A stretch of 56,112 nt of DNA. Origin: a virus (taxonomy: Duplodnaviria > Caudoviricetes). Both the position numbers and the translations under genes were made by a program. The stretch is from positions 1 to 56,112 of IMG/VR virus record IMGVR_UViG_3300020603_000019, one strand, 5' to 3'. This document shows, piece by piece, positions 2,440 to 17,977 of this stretch (the stretch's first letter is position 1; each line of letters opens with the position of its first letter). The notes under the pieces were generated by a model that was not told the DNA's origin, made no database searches, and was given only the letters and a program-made list of their open reading frames with translations.

Positions 2440-2490
2440 ATCAAAGACTCCTTCCTGAGTTTTGTAGGTTAATAGTGCTGATGATTAGAT

Positions 2491-3621: not shown

Positions 3622-3622
3622 A

Positions 3623-4300: not shown

Positions 4301-4311
4301 AGGGTTCTCCG

Positions 4312-5310: not shown

Positions 5311-5329
5311 TAGTTGGTCCTTTGTTGTG

Positions 5330-5548: not shown

Positions 5549-5851
5549 TTATTTCTTGATGTCGATTACTTCGACCCAAGCAAATTTGCGGTACGGGAAA
5601 CTGCGTGTGCGAACCCAACGTAGTTCCTCGTGTTTGACGTGTCGTTTTGCAATGAACAGGAATATTGAGATGAAGGCACCGGCCCAAAGGCCTGCCATCA
5701 TGCCAGCGAAAGTGCCGGCGAATATCCAGATGAAAAAGAACGTCAGGCAGATGTCAAGAAAAATGTCGTGTTTAGCGATGCGTTTAAGGTTGAGCTTTAG
5801 TAATAGAAATATTATTGCGATGGCGGCTAGTGCGCCTTCTAATATGCCCAT
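5549..5851 (-). CDS. Hypothetical membrane protein (2-3 TM)
   Basis: Three hydrophobic segments and a basic C-terminus. Confidence 0.75.
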   Translation of the reverse strand: MGILEGALAAIAIIFLLLKLNLKRIAKHDIFLDICLTFFFIWIFAGTFAGMMAGLWAGAFISIFLFIAKRHVKHEELRWVRTRSFPYRKFAWVEVIDIKK

Positions 5852-5876
5852 AGTTAGTTAGATCCTGTAGGGTTCT

Positions 5877-6143
5877 TTAATTGTTAATAGAATTGCTTAT
5901 GAAAGCAAATTCGTTCAAAAGAGCAATCCCAGCTATCTGATAGAGAAGTGAGTTTGAATAGCTTATGTACATGCCGTCACTGTTGTCGACGGTAAGTTCA
6001 TCCTTCTCAAAGTCAATTAGTACGTCATGGTTTTTGTGTTTGTTTTTGCGCCAGAGTATTTTAGATCCGTCGAACTCTGGTTCTACAGATAAAGCACGGG
6101 TAATGTCAATGATTATTTTAGTTTCCTTTTCTGAATATTCCAT
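5877..6143 (-). CDS. Hypothetical protein
   Basis: AGGA SD; AT-rich early region. Confidence 0.6.
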   Translation of the reverse strand: MEYSEKETKIIIDITRALSVEPEFDGSKILWRKNKHKNHDVLIDFEKDELTVDNSDGMYISYSNSLLYQIAGIALLNEFAFISNSINN

Positions 6144-6164
6144 TGATGTGTCCTATATGGATAA

Positions 6165-6359
6165 TTACCAGTAATCTCGGTGGCCTCGACTGGCACGCCA
6201 GTTTGGCGGTGGAACCCAGCGCCAATCGTAAGGTGTGTAAAACATTACGTTTATTAAGCGCCAGTACCAAGATTTATTAAGGTTTTTTGTGATTGATGTC
6301 TGTACCATCAAGCCAGATCTCGCAAGCATTTCCTGTGACGGCGTCGTTCCCACGTTCAT
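6165..6359 (-). CDS. Hypothetical protein
   Basis: ORF in the tightly packed minus-strand run; start uncertain. Confidence 0.45.
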   Translation of the reverse strand: MNVGTTPSQEMLARSGLMVQTSITKNLNKSWYWRLINVMFYTPYDWRWVPPPNWRASRGHRDYW

Positions 6360-6486
6360 AGTTGAAACGCTCCCGTTTTGTATAGATATGCCATTCTTTA
6401 CCTGTCATACGTAGTTGGACGTTTTTGCGGTAGTCCCAGCCGAAGTACTTAGTTTTCGGCTTGAGTGTTGTGGAAGATTTGTTCAT
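6277..6486 (-). CDS. Hypothetical protein
   Basis: ORF in the minus-strand run. Confidence 0.6.
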   Translation of the reverse strand: MNKSSTTLKPKTKYFGWDYRKNVQLRMTGKEWHIYTKRERFNYERGNDAVTGNACEIWLDGTDINHKKP

Positions 6487-6718
6487 CGCCTAAGTCTTCT
6501 CGTTTTGGGAATTCGTTTTCGGTGAGAAACGGTTTTGTGGCAGCAGCACGAACTCGTTCGATGAACATTTCGATTTCGTCAGCTGAGTCAAATACAAGAT
6601 GGGGGCGAGCGTATCCTTCAGGGTTTTCGTTTGAGTCGTAAAAGACTTCACTTAGTTCGATATAACTATCGTTAGTAAACGGGTCTTCGAAATGAATAAA
6701 GCGAAGGTTCCAAACCAT
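6449..6718 (-). CDS. Hypothetical protein
   Basis: GGAG SD; WNLR...EVFYD pattern common in small phage proteins. Confidence 0.7.
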   Translation of the reverse strand: MVWNLRFIHFEDPFTNDSYIELSEVFYDSNENPEGYARPHLVFDSADEIEMFIERVRAAATKPFLTENEFPKREDLGDEQIFHNTQAEN

Positions 6719-6720
6719 AG

Positions 6721-6954
6721 TCAGATCTCCTCTGCTTGTTGTTGGCTGATTAAATACCCAAGAGTGATGTCAAGTTCGCTGTAGCTATCGACACGAAGTA
6801 CGGTAGTTTCCCATTTGGCGGATGGGTAAATTCTTTCGCAGTATCGTTTAGTTCTTTCGGCAGACGTTACGTCTGTGAATCCCCATTCGAATATTTCTGA
6901 GTATTCTCCAGGATCAAACTCTTTAGTTCCTTTAACAAGCCAAATGATGCTCAT
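6721..6954 (-). CDS. Hypothetical protein
   Basis: ATGA overlap with the upstream gene; AGGAGG SD. Confidence 0.7.
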   Translation of the reverse strand: MSIIWLVKGTKEFDPGEYSEIFEWGFTDVTSAERTKRYCERIYPSAKWETTVLRVDSYSELDITLGYLISQQQAEEI

Positions 6955-7157
6955 CGGTGAAAGCCTCCTTTATTATTGAAGCCTTTGATTTCTTCCCGGT
7001 TAGCTGGGACCATGTAGTTGCTTTTATGTAATGGCAGTATGGTGTGTTTGACTCTGCGAGCAGACGCTTCGCCGCACTGTAGACAGAGCTCGTAGCCGAG
7101 CGCTTTTCGTGCGTCGGGCACGCTGCGTTCTTGGCACTCAACGCATAGAGTGCTCAT
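6951..7157 (-). CDS. TraR/DksA-like C4 zinc-finger protein
   Basis: CVEC...VPDARKALGYELCLQC matches CxxC-(I/V)PxxR-CxxC. Confidence 0.6.
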   Translation of the reverse strand: MSTLCVECQERSVPDARKALGYELCLQCGEASARRVKHTILPLHKSNYMVPANREEIKGFNNKGGFHR

Positions 7158-7159
7158 GA

Positions 7160-7417
7160 TTAGTGAACGTTGGACTTAAATTCGTTTTCAATGTCTCGTG
7201 ATGTTCGTTTCATGAAGTCCCCTAGTCCGTCGATTAAATGATCTATTTCTTCTTGGGTGATTTGGTTATTAGTTGATGCTCGCACTGAACCAAGCACGTA
7301 CGCTATTGCTAGCGTAAAGTTCTTGAGAAAATTGTCGAGTTTCTCTGGGTTGAAGCCATCTGAAACTAAGTTTTCAATGGCTGCTTTGACATGTTTTTCA
7401 AGACTCATACGGGCCAC
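7160..7417 (-). CDS. Hypothetical protein
   Basis: Coupled ORF in the operon. Confidence 0.65.
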   Translation of the reverse strand: MARMSLEKHVKAAIENLVSDGFNPEKLDNFLKNFTLAIAYVLGSVRASTNNQITQEEIDHLIDGLGDFMKRTSRDIENEFKSNVH

Positions 7418-7830
7418 ACGTAGGGTAAGTTTGATGGTTCGATCCAGTTGTAGCGAGCGTAATACACAGGGTCTTTGCGCAATAGGTTGCTGCGATGAGA
7501 CGCGTGCAATGCGTCTTCGCCTAGCCAGGCGGGCGGTGCGTCATTGCGTCCATCGGAGCTGTACTGATCTGCTGCGTCTTCGAAAAACAGCAGCAGTGAG
7601 TCGTTATACCCACGAGATATCCATTCACGGCACATGGCAGCTCCATAGCGACATAGCTCTATTTCGTGGTTGCGCCACATGTTGGTAGCTGGGTGATTGC
7701 GCCATCCGCCGGTGGTCTTTGGCATAGCAAGCAGTATTTGTTTGCACTCTACCCGCTGCTTTCCAAGGCGTTGGCGGTCTAGGATTAGTGCTGATTGGGC
7801 GTAGTTGGGATACGGTAAAAAAGTTTGCAT
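7405..7830 (-). CDS. Pyrimidine-dimer DNA glycosylase-like protein (MSMEG_6728/DenV-like)
   Basis: MQTFLPY, LDRQRLGKQRVE, GWRNHPATNMW, EWISRGY, SHRSNLLRKDP, YVWP signature. Confidence 0.85.
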   Translation of the reverse strand: MQTFLPYPNYAQSALILDRQRLGKQRVECKQILLAMPKTTGGWRNHPATNMWRNHEIELCRYGAAMCREWISRGYNDSLLLFFEDAADQYSSDGRNDAPPAWLGEDALHASHRSNLLRKDPVYYARYNWIEPSNLPYVWPV

Positions 7831-7852
7831 AAACTAAAGGACGTTTACATGT

Positions 7853-8026
7853 TTAAGTAGTAATAACGCCTAAGACATAACCGGCCAAAGTGCAGGTTAT
7901 GCATATTAAAATTTCAAAAACCATAAAGTTGGGGTCTGGTGAAAGTTGCTGTTTGAGTTCTTCTTCTAGTTGTTTGATTTGGTATTTAAGTTTTCCTACA
8001 TCGTATTCAGTATAGAAGAAAGACAT
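7853..8026 (-). CDS. Small tail-anchored membrane protein (57 aa, not in ORF track)
   Basis: MSFFYTEYDVGKLKYQIKQLEEELKQQLSPDPNFMVFEILICITCTLAGYVLGVITT. TAATG-coupled to the upstream gene. Confidence 0.6.
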   Translation of the reverse strand: MSFFYTEYDVGKLKYQIKQLEEELKQQLSPDPNFMVFEILICITCTLAGYVLGVITT

Positions 8027-8346
8027 TATTTTGTATCCTGCGGTTTGTATCTTTTTACACCAAGAGTTCTATTGCCTACATTGCCGCCTAATAATTTACG
8101 GCGGCCTGTGTGTGTTAGTGTCAGCGTGCGGATGCGCTCTGTGTCTAGGTCAAGCATATCGCAAATCCAATTAAATGAACGTTCTTTTTCAGAAAAACTG
8201 TGTAAGTAATCTAAGGCTTCGTACCTTTCTTCTTTGTTGTCTACGTCTCGTATAGCTTGTAAAAGAACACTGGCCCATAGGGCACGGTAATTAGTATTAG
8301 CTCTAAGTATTTTATCCTCTTCAAAGTCATATTGGGTCTGGTACAT
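8026..8346 (-). CDS. Conserved phage hypothetical protein
   Basis: LWASVLLQAIRD...SFNWICDMLDLD pattern is common in phage proteins of unknown function. Confidence 0.7.
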   Translation of the reverse strand: MYQTQYDFEEDKILRANTNYRALWASVLLQAIRDVDNKEERYEALDYLHSFSEKERSFNWICDMLDLDTERIRTLTLTHTGRRKLLGGNVGNRTLGVKRYKPQDTK

Positions 8347-8377
8347 AGCAATTGCCTATTTTCTAAACTAGTTACAT

Positions 8378-8419
8378 AAAAAAAGCCCCCTACCCGGTTC
8401 AGGAGTAGGAGGCTTTTTT
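8378..8419. terminator. Bidirectional intrinsic terminator
   Basis: A7-GCCCCCTAC...GTAGGAGGC-T6, downstream of 8479..9123. Confidence 0.75.
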
Positions 8420-8478
8420 GGTTGCTTTTTGTCAAGGCAACAACCGGCCTTTCCTCAACCTCATTGGTTGTTGGTTAA

Positions 8479-9123
8479 TTACGCAGCACGGAGCTGCTTC
8501 ATGAAGTCACTCACTTCGTTTGCTTCCTGTTCCTCTTGGAGACGGGAGACAATCGAGTCCATAACAGGCATGGCTTCGTGGAAGTTTTCACAAGTCTTGT
8601 CCACGTACCAGTTGCCGTGCTCGTCGCGTGTGCGTTGTTCGAACACGTAGAGCGGGCTGATGTCGGTGAGATACGCCATCTTGGCAGCCAGAAGTGACTG
8701 CAGTTTGTTCAGTGCAATGAAGTCACTGTCAACAAGCGACGGAATGTGCTCGTTGCTGGCGTAGACACCTACCCAGTCACCGACGTCTTGCGAGAAGTCG
8801 ATGCCGTTGCCGAGGTCAGGCTTGTCGTTTGCAATGTACAGACGACGCGCTGCCCAACAGACGCCATTCATCACGGACTGAACGAAAGTGAGAAGACGCT
8901 CCGGCTTGAACGGAGGTCCTTCGACCGGAACGCCCTGCTCCAGTTCCGCACGAACTGCGGCCTGGCGCTGACGCTGCAAGCTGAAGAACGCAAGAGCAAT
9001 ACGCTCGAGCGGGTCGTTTGCTTGCTGCGACTCGACGAACTTGGCGATGGTGCCAATGGTTGTGTTTTTCTCGGACATATAGCCGATGACATTGGGGATG
9101 AAGCTTTGGTCTTTAACAGTCAT
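8479..9123 (-). CDS. Hypothetical protein (early)
   Basis: 214-aa ORF with AGGT SD, followed by a terminator. Confidence 0.8.
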   Translation of the reverse strand: MTVKDQSFIPNVIGYMSEKNTTIGTIAKFVESQQANDPLERIALAFFSLQRQRQAAVRAELEQGVPVEGPPFKPERLLTFVQSVMNGVCWAARRLYIANDKPDLGNGIDFSQDVGDWVGVYASNEHIPSLVDSDFIALNKLQSLLAAKMAYLTDISPLYVFEQRTRDEHGNWYVDKTCENFHEAMPVMDSIVSRLQEEQEANEVSDFMKQLRAA

Positions 9124-9142
9124 TTGAGTTACCTGTGGTTGA

Positions 9143-9307
9143 TTAGTAGTACTTAGTTTCGTTAGTCAGATCGTTAGTCCGACTAATATCCTCGAGCGTA
9201 GATTCGAGATCTACGTCCGATGATTCGTGGTCCGTCAGCTGGTGTTCGTAGTCAGTGAACAAGTCCCAGTTGACAGTGTTGAAATTGAGTGGATTGCGCT
9301 CACGCAT
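9143..9307 (-). CDS. Small acidic protein (54 aa, not in ORF track)
   Basis: MRERNPLNFNTVNWDLFTDYEHQLTDHESSDVDLESTLEDISRTNDLTNETKYY; GGAG SD. Confidence 0.5.
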   Translation of the reverse strand: MRERNPLNFNTVNWDLFTDYEHQLTDHESSDVDLESTLEDISRTNDLTNETKYY

Positions 9308-9309
9308 GG

Positions 9310-9477
9310 TTATTCTCCAAGTTCGTCGATGTCGTTTTCTATATCGATTAGTAGGATAAGTGTGATTGCGAGCAATACGTCTGAAGGATGTTGAACACAG
9401 TAGTTAGTAAACTGTTTAGCTTTGTTGAACAGTTGTTCGAAGGTTGATTGTGGGATGGGTAGTGGTAGCTGTTTCAT
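9310..9477 (-). CDS. Hypothetical early protein
   Basis: ATG at 9477 with AAGGA SD; first gene after hairpin element 1. Confidence 0.65.
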   Translation of the reverse strand: MKQLPLPIPQSTFEQLFNKAKQFTNYCVQHPSDVLLAITLILLIDIENDIDELGE

Positions 9478-9511
9478 AGTTAGTAGTCCTTGATTAAAGA
9501 ACAAAAATAAT

Positions 9512-9540
9512 ACTGACCGCGAGACGCGAAGCGTCGAGCG
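9512..9540 (+). promoter_or_regulatory. Hairpin element 1 (putative early promoter, template-strand hairpin)
   Basis: ACTGAC-CGC-GA-GACGC-GAA-GCGTC-GA-GCG; one of three copies. Confidence 0.6.
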
Positions 9541-9744
9541 TTATGTCCAACGGGCTATGTAGAGACCTACAATTATGCCAATAGAAAATACAAGTATTTC
9601 TGCAAGTATTAAAGTGTTTTCTAGTTTGAACTTCTTATCATTCAGATCACTTATGGTTTTGTTGAGGCGGGTTATTTCGGCGTGGTTAGAAGCTACTAAA
9701 GCTTCGTAGTGAGAAATAATCGACTCTTTTTCGTAAGGGTTCAT
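9541..9744 (-). CDS. Small coiled-coil plus C-terminal TM protein
   Basis: ATGA overlap with the upstream gene; hydrophobic C-terminus. Confidence 0.65.
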   Translation of the reverse strand: MNPYEKESIISHYEALVASNHAEITRLNKTISDLNDKKFKLENTLILAEILVFSIGIIVGLYIARWT

Positions 9745-10076
9745 GGGGATTTCTCCACCTTATTGGTAAATGTCCAGCGTGCCCAGGACGCGTGGTCTGC
9801 GGCATCGTCTTCGGTCAAGAAGTAATCCGACGTGCGGTCGTACGGCTCGTACCGCCATTGCCCGCAAGAAGCGTCGTAGTTGTAGCAACAGCGTCCTACG
9901 TACCAACCTACTCCGCTTTTCATGGGCAGTTCTGGGCTAACTGCACAGAAGTTTGGTGCAGGGTCCTTGATGTTATCAAGGACGTACTCGTAGAACTCAG
10001 CGATGGTAGTGGCAGGAACGTCGTCGTAATAGATGATGCTAGAAGCTGTTGGGGCGATTTGTCCTATCGGGAACAT
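9741..10076 (-). CDS. Hypothetical protein
   Basis: GGAG SD; SGVGWYVG...EPYDRTSDYF pattern. Confidence 0.7.
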   Translation of the reverse strand: MFPIGQIAPTASSIIYYDDVPATTIAEFYEYVLDNIKDPAPNFCAVSPELPMKSGVGWYVGRCCYNYDASCGQWRYEPYDRTSDYFLTEDDAADHASWARWTFTNKVEKSP

Positions 10077-10317
10077 TGGTTGGCTCCGTCTTTTTGGTTA
10101 CGTTGATTGGTTCGATGACATCGGATATTCGGATGATGAGCCTGTGCCAACCTCTTTGGTTGTCACAAGCCATCTTGTAGAGAACTTCGTAGGGCTTTCC
10201 AAGGACGGATAGCTCATCGGTTTCTACATTGGCGATCTGGGCAAGCCTTGCGAGTGAGACGCGCAGGTTGACCAGGTCGCGTTGTGCTTGGCTGTCTATA
10301 GTTTGGGTTTTGAACAC
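10039..10317 (-). CDS. Hypothetical protein
   Basis: Likely GTG start at 10317 with GAGG SD; the longer ORF-track start overlaps the upstream gene. Confidence 0.6.
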   Translation of the reverse strand: MFKTQTIDSQAQRDLVNLRVSLARLAQIANVETDELSVLGKPYEVLYKMACDNQRGWHRLIIRISDVIEPINVTKKTEPTNVPDRTNRPNSF

Positions 10318-10327
10318 TGTTGTTACC

Positions 10328-10564
10328 TCAGTCGGTGTACACGGTGACTTCGAGTTCGCCGTTGGCGAACGCGCGGACCTCGCCACCGAAGTGGCCGGGG
10401 TGTTTCTCGCCTTTCTCGATCGATGCCCACTGGTCATCGGTTAGTTCACCGTTGTTATCGACAAGGGTGACAATGCGATAGTCCGAGTACGCCATCTCGT
10501 GTGGCTCGAGGCGCACGCGATGGATGTTTTTGTTATAGGCGGAAGTTCTGGATATGAATTTCAT
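10328..10564 (-). CDS. Hypothetical early protein
   Basis: GAGG SD; first gene after hairpin element 2. Confidence 0.7.
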   Translation of the reverse strand: MKFISRTSAYNKNIHRVRLEPHEMAYSDYRIVTLVDNNGELTDDQWASIEKGEKHPGHFGGEVRAFANGELEVTVYTD

Positions 10565-10610
10565 GGTTAGCTAACCTCGTTGGCTAATTGATTAAAGTGC
10601 ACAAATGGAC

Positions 10611-10639
10611 ACTGATCACGAAGCGCGAAGCGATGAGCG
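10611..10639 (+). promoter_or_regulatory. Hairpin element 2 (degenerate copy)
   Basis: ACTGAT-CAC-GA-AGCGC-GAA-GCGAT-GA-GCG. Confidence 0.55.
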
Positions 10640-11140
10640 TGGTCCGTGGTTAGTGATTAGTGGTTAGTGGCCACTAGTATAAAAATGGTACAACTACTGG
10701 ATATACAACCAGTAGTGTGTGCAGGGAACAGTCAAATGTGTGCAGCAAACAGGGGTATGTGTGCTGCAATAAAGTTGTTGTGTGCAGTAATTTTTCCTTA
10801 TTTATCAGTTGTGTGCAGTGTGTGCAGTCATTTTTATGTACTAAACAAAAAAGAGCATGTCTCTTAAAAAAATGTGTTGGTTTCCCAGAGAAACTGGAAA
10901 CCCCCCCTTTTCAGAGCACACAGTGTTAAGTGCTTGTTTTTACTGGAAAGTTTAGTGCACACATTTCCAGCACACATCGCACACACTGTTGTTTTCATAC
11001 AACAGAGCCACGTCGGGCCTTTTGTGCACGGTCCACGGTGCACGCTTCACTGGCCACGATTCACGATTCACGGTCCACGGGGCACGTGCACGTAGCCGTT
11101 GAACCGAGGTTAAAGAGCCACGGATCGTGGTCCGTGGCTC
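10638..11140. repeat. Repeat-rich non-coding region, candidate replication origin
   Basis: TGTGTGC at 10716, 10737, 10758, 10779, 10810, 10819; inverted GCACACA at 10916, 10957, 10970, 10979; A/T-rich core; flanking 7-bp-period CACG arrays. Confidence 0.7.
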
Positions 11141-11151
11141 TTGGTTAACGG

Positions 11152-11394
11152 CTATTGGTCACGGGCACCGAAGGTTGAACCATACTTCTTGAGCATGCGC
11201 TCACGACGACGACGTGCGAAGAACTTGTAGACGTCCTCAATCGCTAGTTCAAGGGCGACAACTATGCCGCCCAGGATGAGGCCTAGCATGAAGATAGGTA
11301 GGGAGAAGATAAGTCCGACGACAGTCAGGACAATGGCAACACAGACGAGGAAGTTAACGGTAAAGCGAGACAACATGGTAGGTACTCCGTACAT
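11152..11394 (-). CDS. Small membrane protein
   Basis: Long hydrophobic segment followed by an Arg-rich tail. Confidence 0.6.
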   Translation of the reverse strand: MYGVPTMLSRFTVNFLVCVAIVLTVVGLIFSLPIFMLGLILGGIVVALELAIEDVYKFFARRRRERMLKKYGSTFGARDQ

Positions 11395-11429
11395 AGGATG
11401 GGGAGGTTGGAGGTCCCTCCCCGATGGGA

Positions 11430-11702
11430 TTAGGCAATGGCCTGCTCGATGGCTTCAGGCTGCTGGAGCTGATCGAAGTTGAGCTGCTCCTGAACAGGGG
11501 GCTGAAGGGTGAGCCGGTGGCTGAGATATGGTTTGCCTGCTTTGCTGGTGTTGAGCCAGGTAGATACTCTGTAGATACCAGGCTGAGTGACGTGTACGAG
11601 ACCGACGTACTGCGGATCTTGCTTGTCGGGGCGACGAGCGTTGGCGAAGGATGTGCCGGTGTTGGCGGCGGGTATACGAGGAGCGTTGGTTGAAATAGAC
11701 AT
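11430..11702 (-). CDS. DUF736-like putative ssDNA-binding (OB-fold) protein
   Basis: PQYVG...STWLNTSKAGKPYLS resembles the P.Y.G...W...sk.Gk.YLS pattern; strong GGAGG SD. Confidence 0.55.
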   Translation of the reverse strand: MSISTNAPRIPAANTGTSFANARRPDKQDPQYVGLVHVTQPGIYRVSTWLNTSKAGKPYLSHRLTLQPPVQEQLNFDQLQQPEAIEQAIA

Positions 11703-11725
11703 TGATGTGCCCTCCTGGGCTGGTT
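11698..11725 (-). repeat. 28-bp duplicated translation-initiation region, copy 1
   Basis: AACCAGCCCAGGAGGGCACATCAATGTC, identical to 12144-12171. Confidence 0.9.
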
Positions 11726-11729
11726 GAGA

Positions 11730-11906
11730 TTAGTGACCTTTAGTTTCAGCTAGGGTGCCCATAACTGCGCAGAGAGTTGTACAGAGAATCCCTGCAAATA
11801 CTGCTTGACCATAGATCGAGTCGTTAGGGTTAGAAGCGAACAGAATCCAGCCGGTTAGGAACAGATTAAAAACGGTTGAAAGATGCATTGCTGTTGAAAG
11901 TTTCAC
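11730..11906 (-). CDS. Small 2-TM membrane protein (58 aa, not in ORF track)
   Basis: MKLSTAMHLSTVFNLFLTGWILFASNPNDSIYGQAVFAGILCTTLCAVMGTLAETKGH from GTG, AGGGA SD. Confidence 0.5.
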   Translation of the reverse strand: MKLSTAMHLSTVFNLFLTGWILFASNPNDSIYGQAVFAGILCTTLCAVMGTLAETKGH

Positions 11907-11974
11907 GATAGTTCCCTGTGTTTAGTTGAGATTGAAGGAGAGCAGTTTTACGTCATGCTCAGGACAGTGATTGA

Positions 11975-12148
11975 TTAGTCGAGGATTTCTGTAAGAGTGA
12001 GTAAGCCGAGAAGGATGTTGGTCGTGTGCTGCGGATTCTCCTTGGCAGCAGTCACGAGGTTGGATGCTTGAGCTTGCACCTTATCCATTGTGCTGGGCTC
12101 AGTGGCCTGTTGCTCGTTGGTAGTGGTCTGGTTGTTTATGTCTGACAT
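11975..12148 (-). CDS. First early gene, hypothetical (57 aa, not in ORF track)
   Basis: MSDINNQTTTNEQQATEPSTMDKVQAQASNLVTAAKENPQHTTNILLGLLTLTEILD; GGAGG SD. Confidence 0.65.
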   Translation of the reverse strand: MSDINNQTTTNEQQATEPSTMDKVQAQASNLVTAAKENPQHTTNILLGLLTLTEILD

Positions 12149-12171
12149 TGATGTGCCCTCCTGGGCTGGTT
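12144..12171 (-). repeat. 28-bp duplicated translation-initiation region, copy 2
   Basis: Identical to 11698-11725. Confidence 0.9.
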
Positions 12172-12193
12172 ATTGAACATATACACAATAATT

Positions 12194-12222
12194 ACTGACC
12201 GCGAATCGCGAAGCGATGAGCG
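12194..12222 (+). promoter_or_regulatory. Hairpin element 3
   Basis: ACTGAC-CGC-GA-ATCGC-GAA-GCGAT-GA-GCG; compensatory changes relative to copy 1. Confidence 0.6.
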
Positions 12223-12484
12223 TCCGGGGTTACTGGGCGACAAGGTTCCAAGAACACGATGAAAACAAGGTTCCAAGATCTGGATTCCGGGGATCGGGGG
12301 TCCTAGCTCTGGGAGAGGGGAGAGAATGTGTGAGCAGTATAGATAGGGTTTTTGAGTCACCCCCTCCCCACCATCGAAAAGTGAAATCCAAAAATTTTTT
12401 TGCAAAATTTTTTCTGGCATACTCTGGCGACTCTGTTGACGCAGGGGGTCGGCAATCGACTCTTCAACAGACCACGAACCACGA

Positions 12485-12967
12485 ATGGAGAACCCCATAA
12501 CGTGCGTTAGGTGCAAGAAGTCGTTGCCACCGGACCAGTTCAATAGGCACTCGCGCAACAGGGGCGAGATCAAACGCAGCTACTGTCGCGCCTGTGCCAA
12601 GGCCCTCGACCGTAAAACACGGTCCTCTGGCTATGAAACCTATCTCCGGTACTTAATTCGTAAGAACAAGTCCTCGAGCACGGAACGTGGTATCTCTGAT
12701 TACACGATCACGGCGGAGTCCTTGAAGGAACTGTGGGAGAAGCAGGGGGGTAAGTGCGCAATATCCGGCGTCATCCTTACCCATCACCTGGACGGAACGG
12801 GGCGTAAGGAGTTCAACGCCAGCATCGACCGGATAGATAGCCAGCTAGGCTACGTCCCTGGTAACGTTCAGCTCGTTGCCTATCGTGCGAATGTGTTAAA
12901 AAACGACCTTGGGCTCGACATGCTTTATTGGTGGGTTAAGACAATTTACCAATACTCTTGTGATTGA
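12485..12967 (+). CDS. HNH-type endonuclease with N-terminal zinc finger
   Basis: CVRC...CRAC; QGGKCAISG...SIDRIDSQLGYVPGNVQLV...N. Confidence 0.8.
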   Translation: MENPITCVRCKKSLPPDQFNRHSRNRGEIKRSYCRACAKALDRKTRSSGYETYLRYLIRKNKSSSTERGISDYTITAESLKELWEKQGGKCAISGVILTHHLDGTGRKEFNASIDRIDSQLGYVPGNVQLVAYRANVLKNDLGLDMLYWWVKTIYQYSCD

Positions 12968-12986
12968 GCATTAGGGGGGCTAATAT
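12958..12986 (+). promoter_or_regulatory. Sigma70-like promoter overlapped by ATTAG-N5-CTAAT palindrome
   Basis: TTGTGA-17-TAATAT; palindrome at 12970-12984. Confidence 0.5.
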
Positions 12987-12988
12987 AA

Positions 12989-13267
12989 ATGCTGCAAAAA
13001 GTCCAGGTCTTTGCTATAGAGGGCTTTGAAGCGGCCGTTATTGGTACCGCCATTAGGGGCGGGAACGAGGTGCTGGTGTACGACGGTTATCTGGCCGAGG
13101 CCATTGCCCTCGGTCTGGAGCCTAAGGCCGCCAGCCTCAAAGAGTATTTAATGAAGATTGAGCTCGGCAAGCTTGGAGATAAGGCACCAGTTTTCGTGTT
13201 CTTGGATGTAATAAACGTTGGAGACAGTACCGACTCCGTCAGAGAACCAGGAACTCCAGTCCACTGA
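12989..13267 (+). CDS. Hypothetical protein
   Basis: GFEAAVIG...LVYD...GDKAPVF pattern common in aquatic phages. Confidence 0.7.
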   Translation: MLQKVQVFAIEGFEAAVIGTAIRGGNEVLVYDGYLAEAIALGLEPKAASLKEYLMKIELGKLGDKAPVFVFLDVINVGDSTDSVREPGTPVH

Positions 13268-13730
13268 ACAGGTAGAACTCCAGTCATTCATGCCCTACAT
13301 GGGGCTGTCACTGGGGGATCTAACTGCTCAGCAGGAGCGTCTTGTTCTTTATATGTCTCGTGGCATGACGACGGCAGCGGCCGGTCGTGCTGCGGGGTAT
13401 ACGACTCCGCAAGCCGCATACGATGCGGCGAAGCGCCCGGCCGTGGTCAAAGCGTTGAACTACTTTAGGGAGCAGTTCCGTGAAGAGGTGCATTTTACCA
13501 GAGTCCATGCGCACTCGATGTATCTGGATGCGTACAACTCTGCAGCGACGTCTACCGAGATGAAGAACGCGACCGACTCATTAGTCAAGCTCCACGGTTT
13601 GGCGGCTCCGGACCACGCGACGCAGATCAACATCAACGTGACACCGGCCCACATGGAACGGATGTCTGATGAGGATCTGCTGAAGCTGGTCGGTAGAGAC
13701 GAGAAGTATCTGGAGCCTGACTCCACTTGA
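13218..13730 (+). CDS. terS: Terminase small subunit (putative)
   Basis: LTAQQE...TTAAAGRAAGY HTH-like N-terminus, KLHGL C-terminal motif, directly before terL. Confidence 0.7.
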   Translation: METVPTPSENQELQSTEQVELQSFMPYMGLSLGDLTAQQERLVLYMSRGMTTAAAGRAAGYTTPQAAYDAAKRPAVVKALNYFREQFREEVHFTRVHAHSMYLDAYNSAATSTEMKNATDSLVKLHGLAAPDHATQININVTPAHMERMSDEDLLKLVGRDEKYLEPDST

Positions 13731-15388
13731 TAGAAGAGATTCCAACTCGCAAGTGCAGACGGTGCAGGAACCTGCATCCTGTAACCTTGTTTGCGAGCGA
13801 GGTGGAGGGGATATGTGTCTATTGTAAAGCTGATCGTGCAGAAGCATTACCGGACCCCGCCTTGCATAAAGATACGCACAGAAATATGGGGGAGGTGGAG
13901 CTTAGCGTTGAAGAAAGGGCAAAACGGGAACTAGCGTTCCGGTTACTCGCTCGAAAGAGATTACTGCCCTTCGTCGAAAAATACAATACAGACTACGTTG
14001 CAGGGTGGGTGCACAAAGATGTTTGTAAACGACTTGAACAATTTTCTCGGGACGTGGTGGACCAAAAGTCGCCGCGCCTTATGCTCTTTATGCCGCCGCG
14101 TCATGGAAAGTCGACACTTGCGTCAGTGGCATTCCCGGCTTGGCATCTGGGGCGTAATCCTGAACACGAATTTATTAGTTGTTCGTATTCAGGCTCGCTT
14201 GCGATGGGTTTTTCTCGGAAGGTTCGTCAAGTATTACGTGAGCCTACCTATAAAGCGATATTCAAGACGCGTCTGGATCCGGATAGTCAAAGCGCGGAAG
14301 CGTGGCTGACTACTGCTGGCGGCGGTTACGTCGCAGCAGGTGTCGGCGGCGGTATCACGGGTAAAGGCGCGCACGTTCTTGTGGTCGACGACCCCGTCAA
14401 GAACCGCGAGGACGCTGAAAGCCAGAACAATCGCGACGCGAACTGGGATTGGTATACATCAACCGCGTACACACGTCTCGCGCCAGGCGGCGGTGTGCTC
14501 GTCATTCTTACGAGGTGGCACGATGATGACTTGGCTGGAAGACTTCTTAAAGCGGGTATTCAAGGTGGAGACGAGTGGGAAGTCGTTAGATATCCCGCCA
14601 TCGCCGAAGACGACGAAGAGTTCCGAAAAACCGGTGAAGCGCTCCACCCGGAAAGGTACGACGTCGATTCGCTCCGCCGCATCGAAAAAGCGGTAGGTCC
14701 TCGAGACTGGTCTGCGCTCTATCAGCAGAATCCTGTCGCCGACGACGGTCAGTACTTCACCAGAACGATGGTGCAGTACTACGATGCCGACGAGATCGAC
14801 CGCGAAGAGATGCGGTACTACTGTGCCTGGGACCTCGCGATCGGTAAGAACGACCGCAACGATTACAGCGTCGGCCTTGTCGTTGGTATCGACGAAGACG
14901 ATCACATGTATGTAATGGACTGTGTCCGTGGTCGTTGGGATGGCTTCGAGATCGTCGAGCGGATACTCGATCTCTACGAGCAGTGGAAGCCGTCGATCAT
15001 TGGCATTGAAAAAGGTCACATCGAAATGGCCCTCGGTCCGTTCCTCGAGAAGCGTGTGCGTGAGCGCGGGCTCTATGAGGCGTACTTCAAAGATCTGAAG
15101 ACTGGGCGGCGTGACAAGGAGGCTCGAGCCCGAGCCATTCAGGGACGTATGCAGCAGGGCATGGTGTTCTTCCCGAGGGAAGCAGCATTCTCTGGGCCGC
15201 TCATCGCTGAGTTGCTGCGGTTCCCAAATGGTATGCATGATGACCAAGTCGACGCGTTGGCGTGGATTGGTCTCATGATGACAGAGTTTACTACGTATCA
15301 AGCTCCTGTTGTTCGCGAGCCCTCTTGGCGGGATAGGCTCATAGCTATTGCTCGTGGACCGCGCCAAAAGTCCGCGATGAGTGCTTAA
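13727..15388 (+). CDS. terL: Terminase large subunit
   Basis: MPPRHGKS Walker A, VVDDPVK Walker B, TRWHDDD, YQQNP, AWDLA and HDDQVDA nuclease motifs. Confidence 0.96.
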   Translation: MIEEIPTRKCRRCRNLHPVTLFASEVEGICVYCKADRAEALPDPALHKDTHRNMGEVELSVEERAKRELAFRLLARKRLLPFVEKYNTDYVAGWVHKDVCKRLEQFSRDVVDQKSPRLMLFMPPRHGKSTLASVAFPAWHLGRNPEHEFISCSYSGSLAMGFSRKVRQVLREPTYKAIFKTRLDPDSQSAEAWLTTAGGGYVAAGVGGGITGKGAHVLVVDDPVKNREDAESQNNRDANWDWYTSTAYTRLAPGGGVLVILTRWHDDDLAGRLLKAGIQGGDEWEVVRYPAIAEDDEEFRKTGEALHPERYDVDSLRRIEKAVGPRDWSALYQQNPVADDGQYFTRTMVQYYDADEIDREEMRYYCAWDLAIGKNDRNDYSVGLVVGIDEDDHMYVMDCVRGRWDGFEIVERILDLYEQWKPSIIGIEKGHIEMALGPFLEKRVRERGLYEAYFKDLKTGRRDKEARARAIQGRMQQGMVFFPREAAFSGPLIAELLRFPNGMHDDQVDALAWIGLMMTEFTTYQAPVVREPSWRDRLIAIARGPRQKSAMSA

Positions 15389-15390
15389 CC

Positions 15391-15804
15391 GTGGCAACAC
15401 CTAAAGTCACTGTTACTTCCTACGAAGATTGGAAGAGTAAGTACGGGTTTCAGGAGAGCCCGGACTATAACTTGAAGGCTGCGTTTGAAGCCGGACTAGA
15501 TCCGGAGATGAACTCGGGAGATGGCAAGTTCCACTTATCAGATCGGTTCAAGCTGCCGACTCACCCTACTTATTCGACAGACAGTGACTATTCAAGATCA
15601 AAAGGAGCGCCTCCAGCAGGACGTTGGGAAGGTAGCGAAGAAAAGGGATGGACGTTCTACGCCAGCCCTCAAAACATTAAAAATCTCGGCGGCGAGAAAC
15701 AATATCTAGCTTGGTGGGAAAAGAACGAGCCAGGGGTAAAGCTCGTGCTTCCTCAACAACCGTCACTTAGACAGTTGCCTGTTTTACCCCGTCTCACACG
15801 GTAA
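15391..15804 (+). CDS. Hypothetical protein (YNL...H.SD.FKLP.HPT.S motif)
   Basis: ORF fills the terL-portal gap; conserved-looking motif. Confidence 0.7.
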   Translation: MATPKVTVTSYEDWKSKYGFQESPDYNLKAAFEAGLDPEMNSGDGKFHLSDRFKLPTHPTYSTDSDYSRSKGAPPAGRWEGSEEKGWTFYASPQNIKNLGGEKQYLAWWEKNEPGVKLVLPQQPSLRQLPVLPRLTR

Positions 15805-15810
15805 ACCATT

Positions 15811-17955
15811 ATGGCCAAAATCAAACCACAGTCTATTGAAGATCAACAGCTCGCCCACACGCAGTGGCAGCGCTACGTGCGCGCCCGCGATAACGGGCAT
15901 CTGCAGTACGTTGAGATGGCGAAGAAATGTGACGCGTTCTATCGCGGCGACCAGTGGGACAAGTCTGCTCTTGCAGTTCTGGAGGCCGAGGGCCGTCCAG
16001 CACTGACCATCAATACTATTCTTCCGACCGTGAACACGGTCCTCGGAGAACAGTCCACGCGCCGTGCTGATATTCAGTTCAAGCCACGCCGTGGCGGTGA
16101 CCAGGACGTTGCAAGCGTCCTAACCAAGCTGTACATGCAGATTGCCGACAACAACAAGCTCGACTGGGTCGAGCAGCAGGTGTTCAGCGACGGCCTCATC
16201 ATGGACGGCCGTGGTTACTTTGATGTCCGCATGGACTTTAGTGACCACGTAGAAGGTGAGGTACGCATCACGGCCAAGGACCCGATTGATATCCTGGTTG
16301 ACCCGGATGCCAAGGAGTATGATCCGAAGACATGGAACGAGGTCTTTGAAACTAAATGGATGACCCTCGACGAGATCGAGGAACTGTACGGCGAAGACAA
16401 AGCCGAAGCGCTACGGTTCGTCGCCGAGAATGGCAACGGATTCGGACGCGACTCAATCGAATACGAAGAGACTCGCTACGGCAAGACTGACTCGACGCAG
16501 GACTATCTTAGAGCGTCGGTTCCTGGCAGTGAAGAATACCGAAACGTAAAGGCGCTACGTGTCATCGAGCGGCAGTACCGTAAGATGGGGCGTGCAGATT
16601 TCTTTGTTGATCCCAACACGGGGGATCAGCGCGAGGCCCCCGAAGAGTGGGGCGAGCAGAAGACGAAAAAGTTCGCCAAGCAGTACGGCCTTGGGATCAT
16701 CAGTAAGATTAAGCGCAAAGTGCGCTGGACAGTGACGTGCGACAAGGTCGTGCTCCATGACGACTGGTCGCCGTACGAAGACTTCACTCTCGTCCCTTAC
16801 TTCGCGTATTTCCGTCGCGGCCGTCCGTTCGGTATGGTGCGTAATCTGTTGTCTCCGCAGGAGCAGCTGAACAAGATCGCGAGCCAGGAGCTGCACATCG
16901 TCAACACCACCGCCAACAGTGGCTGGATGGTTGAGAGTGGCTCACTCGTCGGCATGACGACGGACGACCTAGAGGAGCACGGCGCAGAGACGGGCCTGAT
17001 ACTCGAGTACAACCGTGGTTCGCAACCGCCGACCAAGATTCAGCCTAATCAGATTCCGACCGGGCTCGATCGCATCAGTCAGAAGGCGGCGCTCAACATC
17101 AAGACTATCAGCGGCGTGAATGACTCGATGCTCGGGTCGGACAGCGCAGAGGTCTCCGGCATCGCCATTCAGGCGAAGCAGAATCGCGGCGTCATCATGA
17201 TTCAGGTGCCGCTCGACAATCTGCGTAAGACTCGACAGTACCTGGCGGAGAAGGTGCTGAATCTCGTGCAGCGGTTCTACACCGAGCAGCGCGTTATTCA
17301 GATCACCAACGAAGATGATCCAATGAAGCCGCGCGAGCCTATGGTCGTCAATGAAATGACGCCGGAAGGTCGCGTGATTAATGATTTGACTTTAGGCGAG
17401 TACGACGTAATCGTCGGCACTGCGCCTGCGCGCGACTCGTTCGATGAGATGCAGTTCGCCGAGGCGATTAATCTTCGTCAGGTTGGCGTAGCCATACCGG
17501 ACGACGCTATTATTGAGTACAGCCACCTCGCCCGTAAGGGAGAACTTGCGAAGCGTATCCGCATGATGACGGGTGTCGAGCAGACTCCGGAGCAGATGGA
17601 AGCCAACGCTATGCAGGCGGAGCTGGCGATGCAGCAGGTTCAGCTCACGCTGGTCAAACTGCAGGCAGAGGTTCAGAAGTTGCAGTCGGAAGCGGCGGTC
17701 AACATTGCCAAGGTACAGGATGTCGCCGACGTTCAGCCCCAGCTCAAGATGCAGGAGCTCCAGGCGCAGATTGCAATCAAGGAGCGCGAGCTCGAGCTGC
17801 GGCGTGAGCTTTCTTCGCTTACTAATGAAACGCGGCGTAATCAGCATCAGACTGCATCAGCGACTCGTATTGCTGCGACAGTCATGCAGACCGCTGCCAA
17901 GACGCAGAATCAGGGCCCGCCGCCCCCTGTTAATATCCCAAACATGCGGCAATAA
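15811..17955 (+). CDS. Portal protein
   Basis: FYRGDQW, GRPALTIN, VRNLLSPQEQLNK, C-terminal coiled coil (P22-like portal); position after terminase. Confidence 0.93.
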   Translation: MAKIKPQSIEDQQLAHTQWQRYVRARDNGHLQYVEMAKKCDAFYRGDQWDKSALAVLEAEGRPALTINTILPTVNTVLGEQSTRRADIQFKPRRGGDQDVASVLTKLYMQIADNNKLDWVEQQVFSDGLIMDGRGYFDVRMDFSDHVEGEVRITAKDPIDILVDPDAKEYDPKTWNEVFETKWMTLDEIEELYGEDKAEALRFVAENGNGFGRDSIEYEETRYGKTDSTQDYLRASVPGSEEYRNVKALRVIERQYRKMGRADFFVDPNTGDQREAPEEWGEQKTKKFAKQYGLGIISKIKRKVRWTVTCDKVVLHDDWSPYEDFTLVPYFAYFRRGRPFGMVRNLLSPQEQLNKIASQELHIVNTTANSGWMVESGSLVGMTTDDLEEHGAETGLILEYNRGSQPPTKIQPNQIPTGLDRISQKAALNIKTISGVNDSMLGSDSAEVSGIAIQAKQNRGVIMIQVPLDNLRKTRQYLAEKVLNLVQRFYTEQRVIQITNEDDPMKPREPMVVNEMTPEGRVINDLTLGEYDVIVGTAPARDSFDEMQFAEAINLRQVGVAIPDDAIIEYSHLARKGELAKRIRMMTGVEQTPEQMEANAMQAELAMQQVQLTLVKLQAEVQKLQSEAAVNIAKVQDVADVQPQLKMQELQAQIAIKERELELRRELSSLTNETRRNQHQTASATRIAATVMQTAAKTQNQGPPPPVNIPNMRQ

Positions 17956-17977
17956 GTATCCAATAGGAGTTTGATAC

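What the first reader, a model, noticed from the sequence alone, without database searches (positions are those of the whole stretch)
9512..12222. Three template-strand DNA hairpins (GAA loop, tandem G.A pairs) heading early operons, with no RNA polymerase gene
Seen: ACTGAC-CGC-GA-GACGC-GAA-GCGTC-GA-GCG (9512), ACTGAC-CGC-GA-ATCGC-GAA-GCGAT-GA-GCG (12194) and a degenerate copy (10611). Copies 1 and 3 differ only by two compensatory base pairs. Each lies 35-50 bp upstream of a minus-strand gene, followed by conserved TCAGT and an AT-rich tract. Known: d(GCGAAGC) is an exceptionally stable DNA mini-hairpin; Py-GA-Pu tandem sheared G.A pairs are stable in DNA; N4 virion RNAP promoters are template-strand hairpins with such triloops. 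The complementary strand would have a TTC loop and TC/TC mismatches, so the fold is strand-specific. Inference: an ssDNA-structure-based early promoter or priming system read by an unrecognised injected enzyme or by host RNAP with an SSB.
Basis: partly seen in the sequence, partly recalled or inferred. Interest (0 to 1): 0.88.

Follow-up and report, generated by a model that had tools for sequence, protein, structure and literature searches.

The report
N4-style hairpin start signals, no RNAP
Three copies of a small, evolutionarily maintained DNA hairpin sit just upstream of the first early genes of a freshwater podophage and have the same layout as the unusual hairpin promoters of phage N4, yet this phage has no recognisable gene for the special RNA polymerase that reads such promoters.

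Summary
The 29-nt element (ACTGAC + CGC-GA-5 bp-GAA-5 bp-GA-GCG) occurs exactly three times, all on the + strand. In related IMG/VR phages the inner stem changes freely but stays Watson-Crick. Of 31 distinct copies, 99.2% of cells are paired, with 61 double-sided changes and no one-sided (wobble) change. A flank-only pattern gives complementary stems in 70 of 72 viral matches, against 1 of 80 in bacterial genomes. Of 48 contexts, 46 lie 32-56 nt upstream of a start codon with a ribosome-binding site. The layout equals that of N4 P1/P2 read from the N4 genome: 5-bp stem, non-template TTC loop, 4 nt, then GG.

The genome is closed. No RNA polymerase was detected. The 1855-aa protein is an ejectosome protein. 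The 764-aa protein matches nothing known, but only its sequence profile was compared, because both fold-prediction jobs went on the 1855-aa protein.

Best reading (0.4): a template-strand hairpin start signal for early transcription, reader unknown. Rivals are a priming signal for the phage PrimPol-helicase and a sense-RNA leader hairpin. KPP25 hairpins have opposite loop polarity, which counts against the best reading. No transcript data exist.

The parts
9512..9540 (+). Hairpin element copy 1: flank ACTGAC, outer stem CGC/GCG, tandem GA/GA, inner stem GACGC/GCGTC, GAA loop. It abuts the TAA stop (9541-9543) of the upstream minus-strand ORF.
   Evidence: 56.4 bits
10611..10639 (+). Hairpin element copy 2 (degenerate): flank ACTGAT, outer stem CAC/GCG (A.C on +, G.T on -), inner stem AGCGC/GCGAT with one G.A. 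It lies at the left edge of the 590-nt iteron-rich non-coding region.
   Evidence: (46.2 bits)
12194..12222 (+). Hairpin element copy 3: inner stem ATCGC/GCGAT. It lies in the divergent intergenic region at the head of the leftward (early) gene array.
   Evidence: (55.4 bits)
9479..9511 (-). Conserved region downstream of copy 1 on the sense strand: (G)TCAGT, a T-rich motif and the ribosome-binding site. It is either the leader or the initially copied region.
10565..10610 (-). The same downstream region for copy 2.
12149..12193 (-). The same downstream region for copy 3 (TCAGTAATTATTGTGTAT..., then GGAGG, then ATG).
9310..9478 (-). Small early ORF served by copy 1. The ATG at 9478 is the likely start; the ORF listing gives the longest frame, from a TTG at 9504.
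10328..10564 (-). 78-aa early ORF served by copy 2.
11975..12148 (-). 57-aa first ORF of the leftward array, served by copy 3.
12240..12275 (+). Two direct copies of ACAAGGTTCCA just upstream (in the sense direction) of copy 3. The adjacent block GGGGTTACTGGGNGACAAGGTTCCA is conserved next to copy-3-type elements in relatives. Possibly an operator.

Best explanation
The element is a structure-dependent start signal of the N4 early-promoter type. Under negative supercoiling the 23-nt palindrome extrudes. On the + strand, which is the template for the leftward early genes, it forms a compact hairpin. That hairpin has a 5-bp upper stem capped by a GAA triloop (sheared G:A), a tandem G.A step, and a 3-bp lower stem. 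RNA synthesis then starts at the G or GG at the foot of the hairpin (sense strand ...GCG|GTCAGT) and runs leftward through a 33-46 nt leader into the next gene.

Shown: the hairpin is maintained by selection, its strand and position relative to the genes are constant, and its layout equals that of N4 P1/P2.

Inferred: that it folds as DNA on the template strand, that synthesis starts there, and that the product is mRNA. The enzyme that reads it is unknown, because no T7-like, N4-like or two-barrel RNA polymerase is detectable in the closed genome.
For: 1. Pairing is selected. In 18 hand-picked distinct copies, 98.6% of cells pair, 6 of 8 pairs show double-sided changes, and no pair shows a one-sided change. 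In 84 model matches (31 distinct rows), 99.2% of cells pair, with 61 double-sided cells, 0 of 500 shuffles reaching the observed value, and at most 54% paired when the partner is slid.

2. A pattern that fixes only the flanks, loop and outer stem (CTGACCGCGA-N5-GAA-N5-GAGCG) gives 72 matches in IMG/VR. Of these, 70 have 5/5 complementary N5 (8 different stems), and the two exceptions lie in unrelated coding-like contexts. The same pattern in 596 Gb of bacterial genomes gave 90 stretches. In the 80 fetched, 1 had 5/5.

3. The same genome uses different stems (copies 1 and 3), so what is recognised is the pairing, not the stem sequence.

4. The tandem GA/GA is replaced by GC/GC, giving a perfect 10-bp stem, in one relative (L103:8061-8101). 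More distant relatives carry a perfect 10-bp stem with a CCGAC flank (L094:1819, L086:2140). The GA step therefore lies inside the helix, and the total length of 10 positions is conserved.

5. Position. All 3 window copies are on the + strand, as are 56 of 56 matches in TerL-oriented loci. Of 48 distinct contexts, 46 have a ribosome-binding site and start codon 32-56 nt after GTCAG on the sense strand. Copy 3 heads the leftward array in the divergent region. Genomes carry 1-4 copies, all within about 3.5 kb upstream of TerL in the 5 kb of flank held.

6. Layout equals N4. Read from the N4 genome, the sense strand of P1 is GTTGC TTC GCAAC ttat GG and of P2 is GAAGC TCC GCTTC tttt GG. The window has ATCGC TTC GCGAT tcgc GG and GACGC TTC GCGTC tcgc GG. 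The N4 review describes three early promoters, a template-strand hairpin, a 5'G..A3' loop with a sheared pair, a C:G closing pair, +1C, and GTP at +1 and +2 (PMC4496689, passages). In LUZ7 the start site is a G 13-14 nt from the hairpin centre (PMC9163698, passages).

7. No sigma-70-like promoter is found in 9000-13000: 0 found against 4.1 +/- 1.8 in shuffles. No U-run follows the stem, and there is no Rfam match.

8. No wobble pair occurs in any intact copy, which fits DNA better than RNA. Under RNA parameters the GAA strand is also the more stable one in all three copies: -12.5, -13.9 and -11.3 against -11.0, -9.9 and -6.2 kcal/mol.
Against: 1. No reader enzyme was found. The window's ends overlap by 314 nt at 98% identity, so the genome is closed. 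PF00940 was absent from 5 related records, although the control genomes did not ring either. The N4 mini-vRNAP found nothing in 4 records of this clade or in KPP25. hhalign of the 1855-aa and 764-aa families against it gave 0.1%. Models of the 1855-aa protein gave no polymerase fold, and its C-terminal part matches an ejectosome.

2. The upper-stem bases that N4 vRNAP contacts (-8G, -9C) are not conserved here. The loop-closing pair is C:G in only 23 of 31 distinct copies, although N4 needs it for extrusion.

3. KPP25 has the same genome layout. It carries two 9-bp hairpins 41-42 nt upstream of its first two early genes, but with the GGA loop on the sense strand.

4. In copy 2 and in L067:3503 one position is A.C on the GAA strand and G.T on the sense strand.

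5. The more distant TerL relatives (77-82% identity) mostly lack the element: 1 model match in 44 loci, plus 2 found by a looser script. It is therefore not essential to this genome type.

6. No start site is mapped. The match to N4's GG depends on the outer-stem sequence, and the distant variant has AG at that position.
Confidence: 0.4

Rival explanations
1. The element is a single-strand initiation (priming) signal. Once the nearby iteron and A+T-rich region is opened, the + strand hairpin with its 6-nt 5' tail is recognised by the phage's own 848-aa primase-helicase. That enzyme starts a primer or a leading strand running leftward, as RepB' does at RSF1010 ssiA, or as the NrS-1 PrimPol does at its recognition sequence.
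For: - RSF1010 ssiA is described as a 6-nt 5' tail plus a hairpin tipped by CCGAAGG, that is, a GAA triloop. The primase contacts the tail and the base of the stem, not the tip (PMC13037366, section 4.2).
- The conserved parts here are likewise the tail (C[T/C]GAC), the base of the stem and the loop, while the upper stem varies.
- The C-terminal part of the 848-aa protein matches the NrS-1 polymerase C-terminal ring (6k9c, E 6.9e-36).
- NrS-1 PrimPol needs a specific 8-nt template sequence that occurs only twice in its genome (PMC7102993, passages).
- Copy 2 lies about 75 nt from an origin-like region. All 10 copies of TGTGTGC/GCACACA in the window lie in 10716-10985, in two inverted sets around an A+T-rich core.
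Against: - All copies are on one strand, whereas RSF1010 and NrS-1 have one site per strand.
- Copies 1 and 3 lie about 1 kb from the iterons.
- The fixed orientation, the 32-56 nt spacing to start codons in 46 of 48 contexts, and the conserved 20 nt that follow are not needed for a primer site.
- The N-terminal 450 residues of the 848-aa protein match no solved primase by sequence, so a RepB'- or PrimPol-type catalytic domain is not shown.
Confidence: 0.2
2. The element acts as RNA. Host RNA polymerase transcribes the early genes from promoters further upstream, and the sense-strand hairpin (UUC loop, UC/UC internal loop, then GUCAGU) in the leader serves as a 5' stabiliser, a processing site, or the binding site of an anti-termination or translation factor.
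For: - No special polymerase is needed, which fits its absence.
- A clean host-type intrinsic terminator exists on the same strand elsewhere (52505-52485), so host RNA polymerase probably transcribes this strand.
- KPP25 has hairpins at the same distance from the start codon with a different loop on the sense strand, as expected if only an RNA stem matters.
- Two degenerate copies keep G.U on the sense strand.
- Copy 1 directly follows a stop codon, so it would sit inside a polycistronic RNA.
Against: - There are no G.U pairs among 31 distinct intact copies, which carry 61 double-substituted cells.
- The invariant unpaired bases read as pyrimidine mismatches on the RNA. On the opposite strand they form the well-known stable G.A and GNA motifs.
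- No promoter-like site is found upstream of copy 3.
- There is no Rfam family.
- The sense RNA is the weaker fold in all three copies.
Confidence: 0.2
3. The element is a cruciform or hairpin bound or cut by a protein for a purpose other than starting synthesis. Examples are control of early promoters by supercoiling, a pause signal for genome entry, or a site for the endonuclease VII/HNH protein encoded next to the terminase genes.
For: - The first + strand gene (12485-12967) is an endonuclease VII/HNH-type protein.
- Operator-like repeats lie next to copies 2 and 3.
- A TAnnnT hexamer occurs at a fixed offset after the hairpin in 18 of 45 distinct contexts. This would place the hairpin over the -35 region of a weak host-type promoter. 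[quoted passage not shown]
Against: - The A of the hexamer is present in only about half of the copies, and no -35 can be fitted.
- Three cutting sites within 2.7 kb would not give defined genome ends.
- Nothing links the endonuclease to the element.
Confidence: 0.1

Closest known systems
Early promoters P1/P2 of coliphage N4 (read by the virion RNA polymerase)
   Same: Both have a small number of copies at the head of the early genes. Both have a hairpin with a 5-bp upper stem and a 3-nt loop that reads G-A/G-A on the template strand (TTC/TCC on the sense strand), closed by C:G, then 4 nt, then GG on the sense strand. In both, the stem sequence is free as long as it pairs.
   Different: Here the stem continues through a tandem G.A step and 3 more pairs, so the putative start site is itself paired. 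The upper-stem bases contacted by N4 vRNAP are not conserved. The closing pair varies in 8 of 31 distinct copies. A conserved GTCAG follows. No vRNAP homologue exists in the genome. The phage is not a schitovirus; its portal is about 41% identical to that of KPP25.
Hairpin promoters of the N4-like Pseudomonas phage LUZ7 (early, and middle read by RNAPII)
   Same: Both are GC-rich hairpins with a 3-4 nt loop. In LUZ7 a G start lies 13-15 nt downstream of the hairpin centre, and tandem copies occur (PMC9163698, passages). The G after the stem here lies 12 nt from the loop centre.
   Different: LUZ7 encodes both vRNAP and RNAPII. Start sites there are mapped, and here they are not. I did not see the LUZ7 motif sequences, because figures and supplements are not held.
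ssiA/ssiB of plasmid RSF1010 (RepB' primase), and the mini-hairpin at the G4 complementary-strand origin
   Same: Both are single-stranded DNA hairpins tipped by a GAA or GNA mini-hairpin, with a short conserved 5' tail, and are recognised as a start site for a primase (PMC13037366).
   Different: Those sites come one per strand inside an origin and are not tied to gene starts. No RepB'-like domain was found here.
Hairpins upstream of the first two early genes of Pseudomonas phage KPP25 (24021-24041 and 24322-24342 of NC_024123.1)
   Same: The genome layout is the same, with divergent structural and early arrays. The position is the same (41-42 nt before the ATG). Both have a triloop, and two copies carry fully different but complementary stems.
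   Different: The KPP25 stems are 9 bp without a G.A step. The loop is GGA on the sense strand, which is the opposite polarity. There is no CTGAC flank, and model R1 does not find them. As far as my searches went, they are not described in print.

Membership tests
N4-type virion-RNAP hairpin promoter | A hairpin of 5-7 bp with a 3-nt loop, maintained by pairing rather than by stem sequence | tested here: met
   70 of 72 matches with a complementary stem; control: 1 of 80
N4-type virion-RNAP hairpin promoter | The loop reads 5'-G(A/G)A-3' on the template strand of the downstream genes, closed by C:G | tested here: met
   The GAA loop is invariant and lies on the template strand in all copies. 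The closing pair is C:G in the 3 window copies and in 23 of 31 distinct copies; 8 differ.
N4-type virion-RNAP hairpin promoter | Fixed spacing from the hairpin to a G start (+1C on the template) | tested here: inconclusive
   The sequence layout is identical to N4 P1/P2: 5 bp, loop, 5 bp, 4 nt, GG. However, no start site is mapped, and a distant variant has AG at that position.
N4-type virion-RNAP hairpin promoter | Conserved upper-stem contact bases (-8G, -9C) | tested here: not met
   Pairs 21-27 and 22-26 vary (GC:14, CG:11, AU:6 and CG:23, GC:6, AU:1, UA:1).
N4-type virion-RNAP hairpin promoter | The phage encodes a virion RNA polymerase with a T7-like domain | tested here: not met
   The genome is closed. 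The 764-aa protein was tested by sequence profile only.
N4-type virion-RNAP hairpin promoter | Extrusion dependent on gyrase and activation dependent on SSB | not testable with these tools
   This needs probing of supercoiled DNA and in vitro transcription.
RSF1010-type single-strand initiation signal | A hairpin with a short conserved 5' tail, recognised by a dedicated primase | tested here: inconclusive
   The architecture is similar. The phage has a primase-helicase with an NrS-1-like C-terminal ring. Its N-terminal domain matches no solved primase.
RSF1010-type single-strand initiation signal | Sites on both strands within the origin | tested here: not met
   All copies are on one strand. 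Only copy 2 adjoins the iterons.
Intrinsic (rho-independent) terminator | A U/T run directly after the stem | tested here: not met
   The scan lists none at the three sites. The stem is followed by GTCAGT on the sense strand and by no T run on the + strand.
Sigma-70 promoter | -35 and -10 hexamers with a 16-18 bp spacing | tested here: not met
   0 sites in 9000-13000. TAnnnT at a fixed offset occurs in only 18 of 45 contexts.
Any curated RNA family (Rfam 15) | A match to a covariance model | tested here: not met
   0 matches at E <= 1 in 9000-13000.

The most novel reading that the evidence does not exclude
N4's odd way of starting early gene expression, reading a supercoil-extruded hairpin on the template strand, also operates in a separate, widespread clade of freshwater podophages that has no T7-like virion polymerase. 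If so, the hairpins are read by something new. Candidates are an injected protein of unrecognised fold (the 764-aa protein is untested by structure), the host RNA polymerase or primase acting with SSB, or the phage PrimPol-helicase acting as a transcriptase or primer-maker.
Probability: 0.25. Interest if true: 0.9.

Novelty: new variant of a known kind. Interest (0 to 1): 0.72.

Why it matters
As far as my searches reached, hairpin promoters are known only from N4-like phages. There they are inseparable from the giant injected RNA polymerase, or from its small relative RNAPII. The element found here has the same layout, is backed by unusually clean covariation, and sits in a different phage lineage with no such enzyme.

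Two outcomes are possible. One is a new enzyme class that starts RNA or DNA synthesis on extruded DNA hairpins. The other is that the stable GNA mini-hairpin has been recruited independently for another start signal, such as priming.

Either way it gives a compact, well-defined ~30-nt substrate, with natural compensatory variants that serve as ready-made controls for biochemical tests. It also flags undescribed hairpins at the same place in the therapeutic-candidate Pseudomonas phages of the KPP25 group.

Tried and rejected
- **Intrinsic terminator:** rejected. No T run follows the stem on either strand, and copy 3 has no upstream gene on its strand.
- **Sigma-70 promoter:** no fit. The whole genome is depleted in such matches: 6 against 16.3 +/- 3.9 in 1-20000, and 6 against 13.1 +/- 3.2 in 40000-56112. 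The region 20001-39999 was not scanned.
- **Site for a dimeric double-stranded-DNA-binding protein:** rejected. The conserved GA..GAA..GA is not symmetric, and stems differ within one genome.
- **Chance or assembly artefact:** rejected.
- **Known RNA family:** none.
- **RNA polymerase hidden in a missing piece of the genome:** rejected. The ends overlap by 314 nt at 98% identity, and both ends map to one overlapping stretch of G002.
- **Two-barrel polymerase motif:** a regular-expression look for D.D.D in 24 large ORFs found only DKDPD (DNA polymerase), DFDPD (1855-aa protein, residue 922) and DPDPD (936-aa tail protein), and no DxDGD. The motif is recalled from memory.
- **ESM Atlas:** it placed the 1855-aa protein next to large polyvalent or internal-core proteins, and gave nothing useful for the 764-aa protein.
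- **Other relatives:** Acidovorax AP1 and the Manatee Spring phage share only the structural module and were not informative. Aeromonas phiA008 has no such hairpin in its divergent region.
- **Relatives without the element:** one (L078) also has no sigma-70-like site on the early strand, so nothing could be learned from the replacement.
- **Sequencing runs:** no RNA holder was listed.
- **Material not seen:** figures and supplements of the N4, LUZ7 and mini-hairpin papers. The N4 promoter sequences were therefore taken from the genome record. The LUZ7 motifs and the identity of the NrS-1 8-nt site were not seen.

Full report
**What is there.** The window is a whole IMG/VR virus record. Its first 316 nt and last 314 nt are 98% identical, and both ends map to one overlapping stretch of a 95-99% identical relative. 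It is therefore a closed genome of about 55.8 kb.

Genes on the minus strand (1-12148 and about 48000-56112) include:
- family A DNA polymerase;
- an 848-aa primase-helicase (DUF5906);
- an SNF2 helicase and an exonuclease;
- a MoxR ATPase, a vWA protein and an Nmad5 protein;
- many small ORFs.

The plus strand (12485-47148) carries:
- an endonuclease VII/HNH gene;
- terminase, portal and capsid genes;
- the 764-aa and 1855-aa proteins;
- tail fibre genes.

The nearest named relatives are distant. The portal is about 41% identical to those of Pseudomonas phages KPP25 and phiR18, Acidovorax AP1 and a Manatee Spring phage.

**The observation.** They are the only three hits of a covariance model in the genome: 56.4, 55.4 and 46.2 bits, with the next hit at 11.4 bits. 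Each lies 33-46 nt upstream of a minus-strand start codon with a ribosome-binding site. Copy 1 abuts the stop codon of the preceding ORF. Copy 2 closes a 590-nt non-coding region. Copy 3 heads the whole leftward array in the divergent intergenic region.

Folding energies alone are unremarkable and are equal for the two DNA strands. The heptamer GCGAAGC alone is barely enriched.

**Evidence from relatives.**
- A scan of IMG/VR for the element found 21 stretches, one of them a chance hit. A TerL search found 246 relatives, of which 80 loci were kept.
- In the loci with at least 83% TerL identity, 1-3 copies occur within about 3.5 kb upstream of TerL, always on the TerL strand (56 of 56 matches in TerL-oriented loci).
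- The inner stem takes at least eight different sequences, all Watson-Crick. The outer stem shows CGC/GCG changing to CGT/ACG.
- On 18 distinct copies, 98.6% of cells pair and 6 of 8 pairs have double-sided changes. On 84 model matches (31 distinct), 99.2% pair, with 61 double-sided and 0 one-sided changes. That alignment is fitted to the model, which favours the structure.
- A cleaner test fixes only flanks, loop and outer stem. In viral contigs, 70 of 72 matches have a 5/5 complementary inner stem. In bacterial genomes, 1 of the 80 fetched stretches does.
- Some variants replace GA/GA by GC/GC, shift the GA step by one pair, or have a perfect 10-bp stem with a CCGAC flank. What is constant is C(T/C)GAC, ten stem positions and GAA.
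- More distant relatives (77-82% TerL identity) mostly lack the element and instead carry TGTGTGCCA repeats in the divergent region.

**Position.** Of 48 distinct contexts, 46 have a ribosome-binding site and start codon 32-56 nt after GTCAG. One has it at 106 nt (a tandem copy), and one has none. The 20 nt after the stem are also conserved, with consensus GTCAGT..cTaTTgTGTaTct.

**Comparison with N4, using N4's own sequence.** In the N4 genome the sense strand reads GTTGC TTC GCAAC ttat GG at P1 and GAAGC TCC GCTTC tttt GG at P2. The window reads ATCGC TTC GCGAT tcgc GG and GACGC TTC GCGTC tcgc GG.

The N4 review (PMC4496689, passages read) states the following:
- there are three early promoters;
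- the hairpin is on the template strand;
- the loop is 5'G..A3' with a sheared pair;
- a C:G closing pair is needed for extrusion;
- the polymerase recognises -11A/G, -10G, -8G and +1C;
- GTP occupies +1 and +2;
- gyrase and SSB are required.

The window's copies fit all the sequence features. In relatives, however, -8, -9 and the closing pair vary, so the mode of recognition cannot be the same in detail. Here the stem continues below the N4-like part through a tandem G.A and three pairs, so the putative start site is paired until it is opened. That tandem G.A in a pyrimidine-GA-purine context is stable in DNA is something I recall, not something I tested. The stability of the GAA-capped mini-hairpin and its sheared pair is stated in PMC13037366 (passages).

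**The missing enzyme.**
- PF00940 is absent from 5 records, but the control rang nowhere.
- The N4 mini-vRNAP finds nothing in four records of the clade or in KPP25.
- hhalign of the 1855-aa and 764-aa families against it gives 0.1%.
- The 1855-aa protein has an HExxH site. Its model for residues 1-1200 (pLDDT 66.7) consists of small domains and has 0 fold matches at E <= 0.001.
- An all-helical model for residues 1150-1855 (pLDDT 76.5) has as its only significant match the PhiM1 ejectosome (8vb2_A, E 2.5e-4).
- Profiles of both families find no polymerase among solved structures.
- The 764-aa protein remains of unknown fold.

**Rivals.** The mini-hairpin review points to a second known use of GAA-tipped DNA hairpins, namely primase start signals at RSF1010 ssiA and the G4 origin. 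The architecture (6-nt tail, hairpin, tip) and the pattern of conservation fit as well as N4 does. The C-terminal ring of the 848-aa protein is that of the NrS-1 PrimPol, an enzyme that needs a specific template sequence. Copy 2 adjoins an origin-like iteron region. Against this reading stand the single-strand bias and the tight link to gene starts.

The sense-RNA reading avoids the enzyme problem. It is favoured by KPP25, whose two 9-bp hairpins sit 41-42 nt before its first two early genes with GGA on the sense strand (only the first 50,000 of 64,113 bases were read). It does not explain the lack of any wobble pair or the purine motifs on the other strand.

**Verdict.** This is a real, conserved, structure-dependent element at the head of the early operons. 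It works most likely like an N4 early promoter (0.4), but it is not a member of that system as defined, because the defining polymerase and contact bases are absent. It is a new variant of a known kind, with a fair chance (about 0.25) of hiding a new kind of reader.

Noticed in passing
window 10565-11151: A 590-nt non-coding region that looks like an origin or control region. It has six TGTGTGC (10716-10825) and four GCACACA (10916-10985), which are all ten copies in the window. They flank an A+T-rich core. CACGGTCCACGG x2 and ACGATTCACG x2 lie at 11027-11080.
   Followed up: partly
window 12390-12413: An A+T palindrome (AAAAATTTTTTTGCAAAATTTTTT) in the divergent region. Similar palindromes recur at the same place in relatives and in Aeromonas phage phiA008.
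   Followed up: no
window 1-316 and 55799-56112: The ends of the record repeat each other (314 nt, 98% identical). The record listed as 'linear' and 95% complete is therefore a closed, circularly permuted assembly.
   Followed up: yes
window 27280-32847: The 1855-aa virion protein has an HExxH metallopeptidase-like site at residues 1063-1067. Its highly conserved all-helical C-terminal 700 residues match the PhiM1 ejectosome protein (8vb2_A).
   Followed up: yes
L102 (KPP25, NC_024123.1) 24021-24041 and 24322-24342; weaker 26845-26857: Two 9-bp GGA-triloop hairpins with unrelated but complementary stems lie 41-42 nt upstream of the first two early genes. A shared TCAT(C/T)CAC motif sits just before the ribosome-binding sites. 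I found no description of them in the papers searched.
   Followed up: partly
L108/L109 (phiA008, OL774570.1), about 1-170: The divergent region holds repeated CGACTGA units and the string ATACGACTGCATAGGGA. As I recall, this resembles the consensus of T7-class promoters. Whether phiA008 encodes such a polymerase was not checked.
   Followed up: no
window 11430-11702 (-): A 90-aa ORF in the first early operon has a weak match to a PHROG annotated as single-strand DNA-binding protein (phrog_18154, E 4.6e-5). N4 and LUZ7 use early ssDNA-binding proteins as transcription activators.
   Followed up: no
window 1-20000 and 40000-56112: Sigma-70-like hexamer pairs are depleted about two- to three-fold against shuffles: 6 against 16.3 +/- 3.9, and 6 against 13.1 +/- 3.2.
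   Followed up: no
window 53278-55824 (-): The C-terminal part of the 848-aa primase-helicase matches the ring domain of the NrS-1 PrimPol (6k9c, E 6.9e-36). Its N-terminal 450 residues match no Pfam family above the cut-off and no solved structure.
   Followed up: partly
window 7405-7830 (-), 3623-4300 (-), 2491-3621 (-), 4312-5310 (-): Auxiliary genes: a pyrimidine-dimer DNA glycosylase, an Nmad5-domain protein, and a DUF2201 metallopeptidase/vWA protein with a MoxR-type ATPase. These may indicate DNA modification or repair functions.
   Followed up: no
L016:3347, and near one end of L028, L031 and L032: Another recurrent GAA-triloop hairpin (CGAAGAG[G/A]TG GAA CA[C/T]CTCGTCG, with one G.A) lies on the strand opposite to TerL in several relatives. 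It is absent from the window.
   Followed up: no
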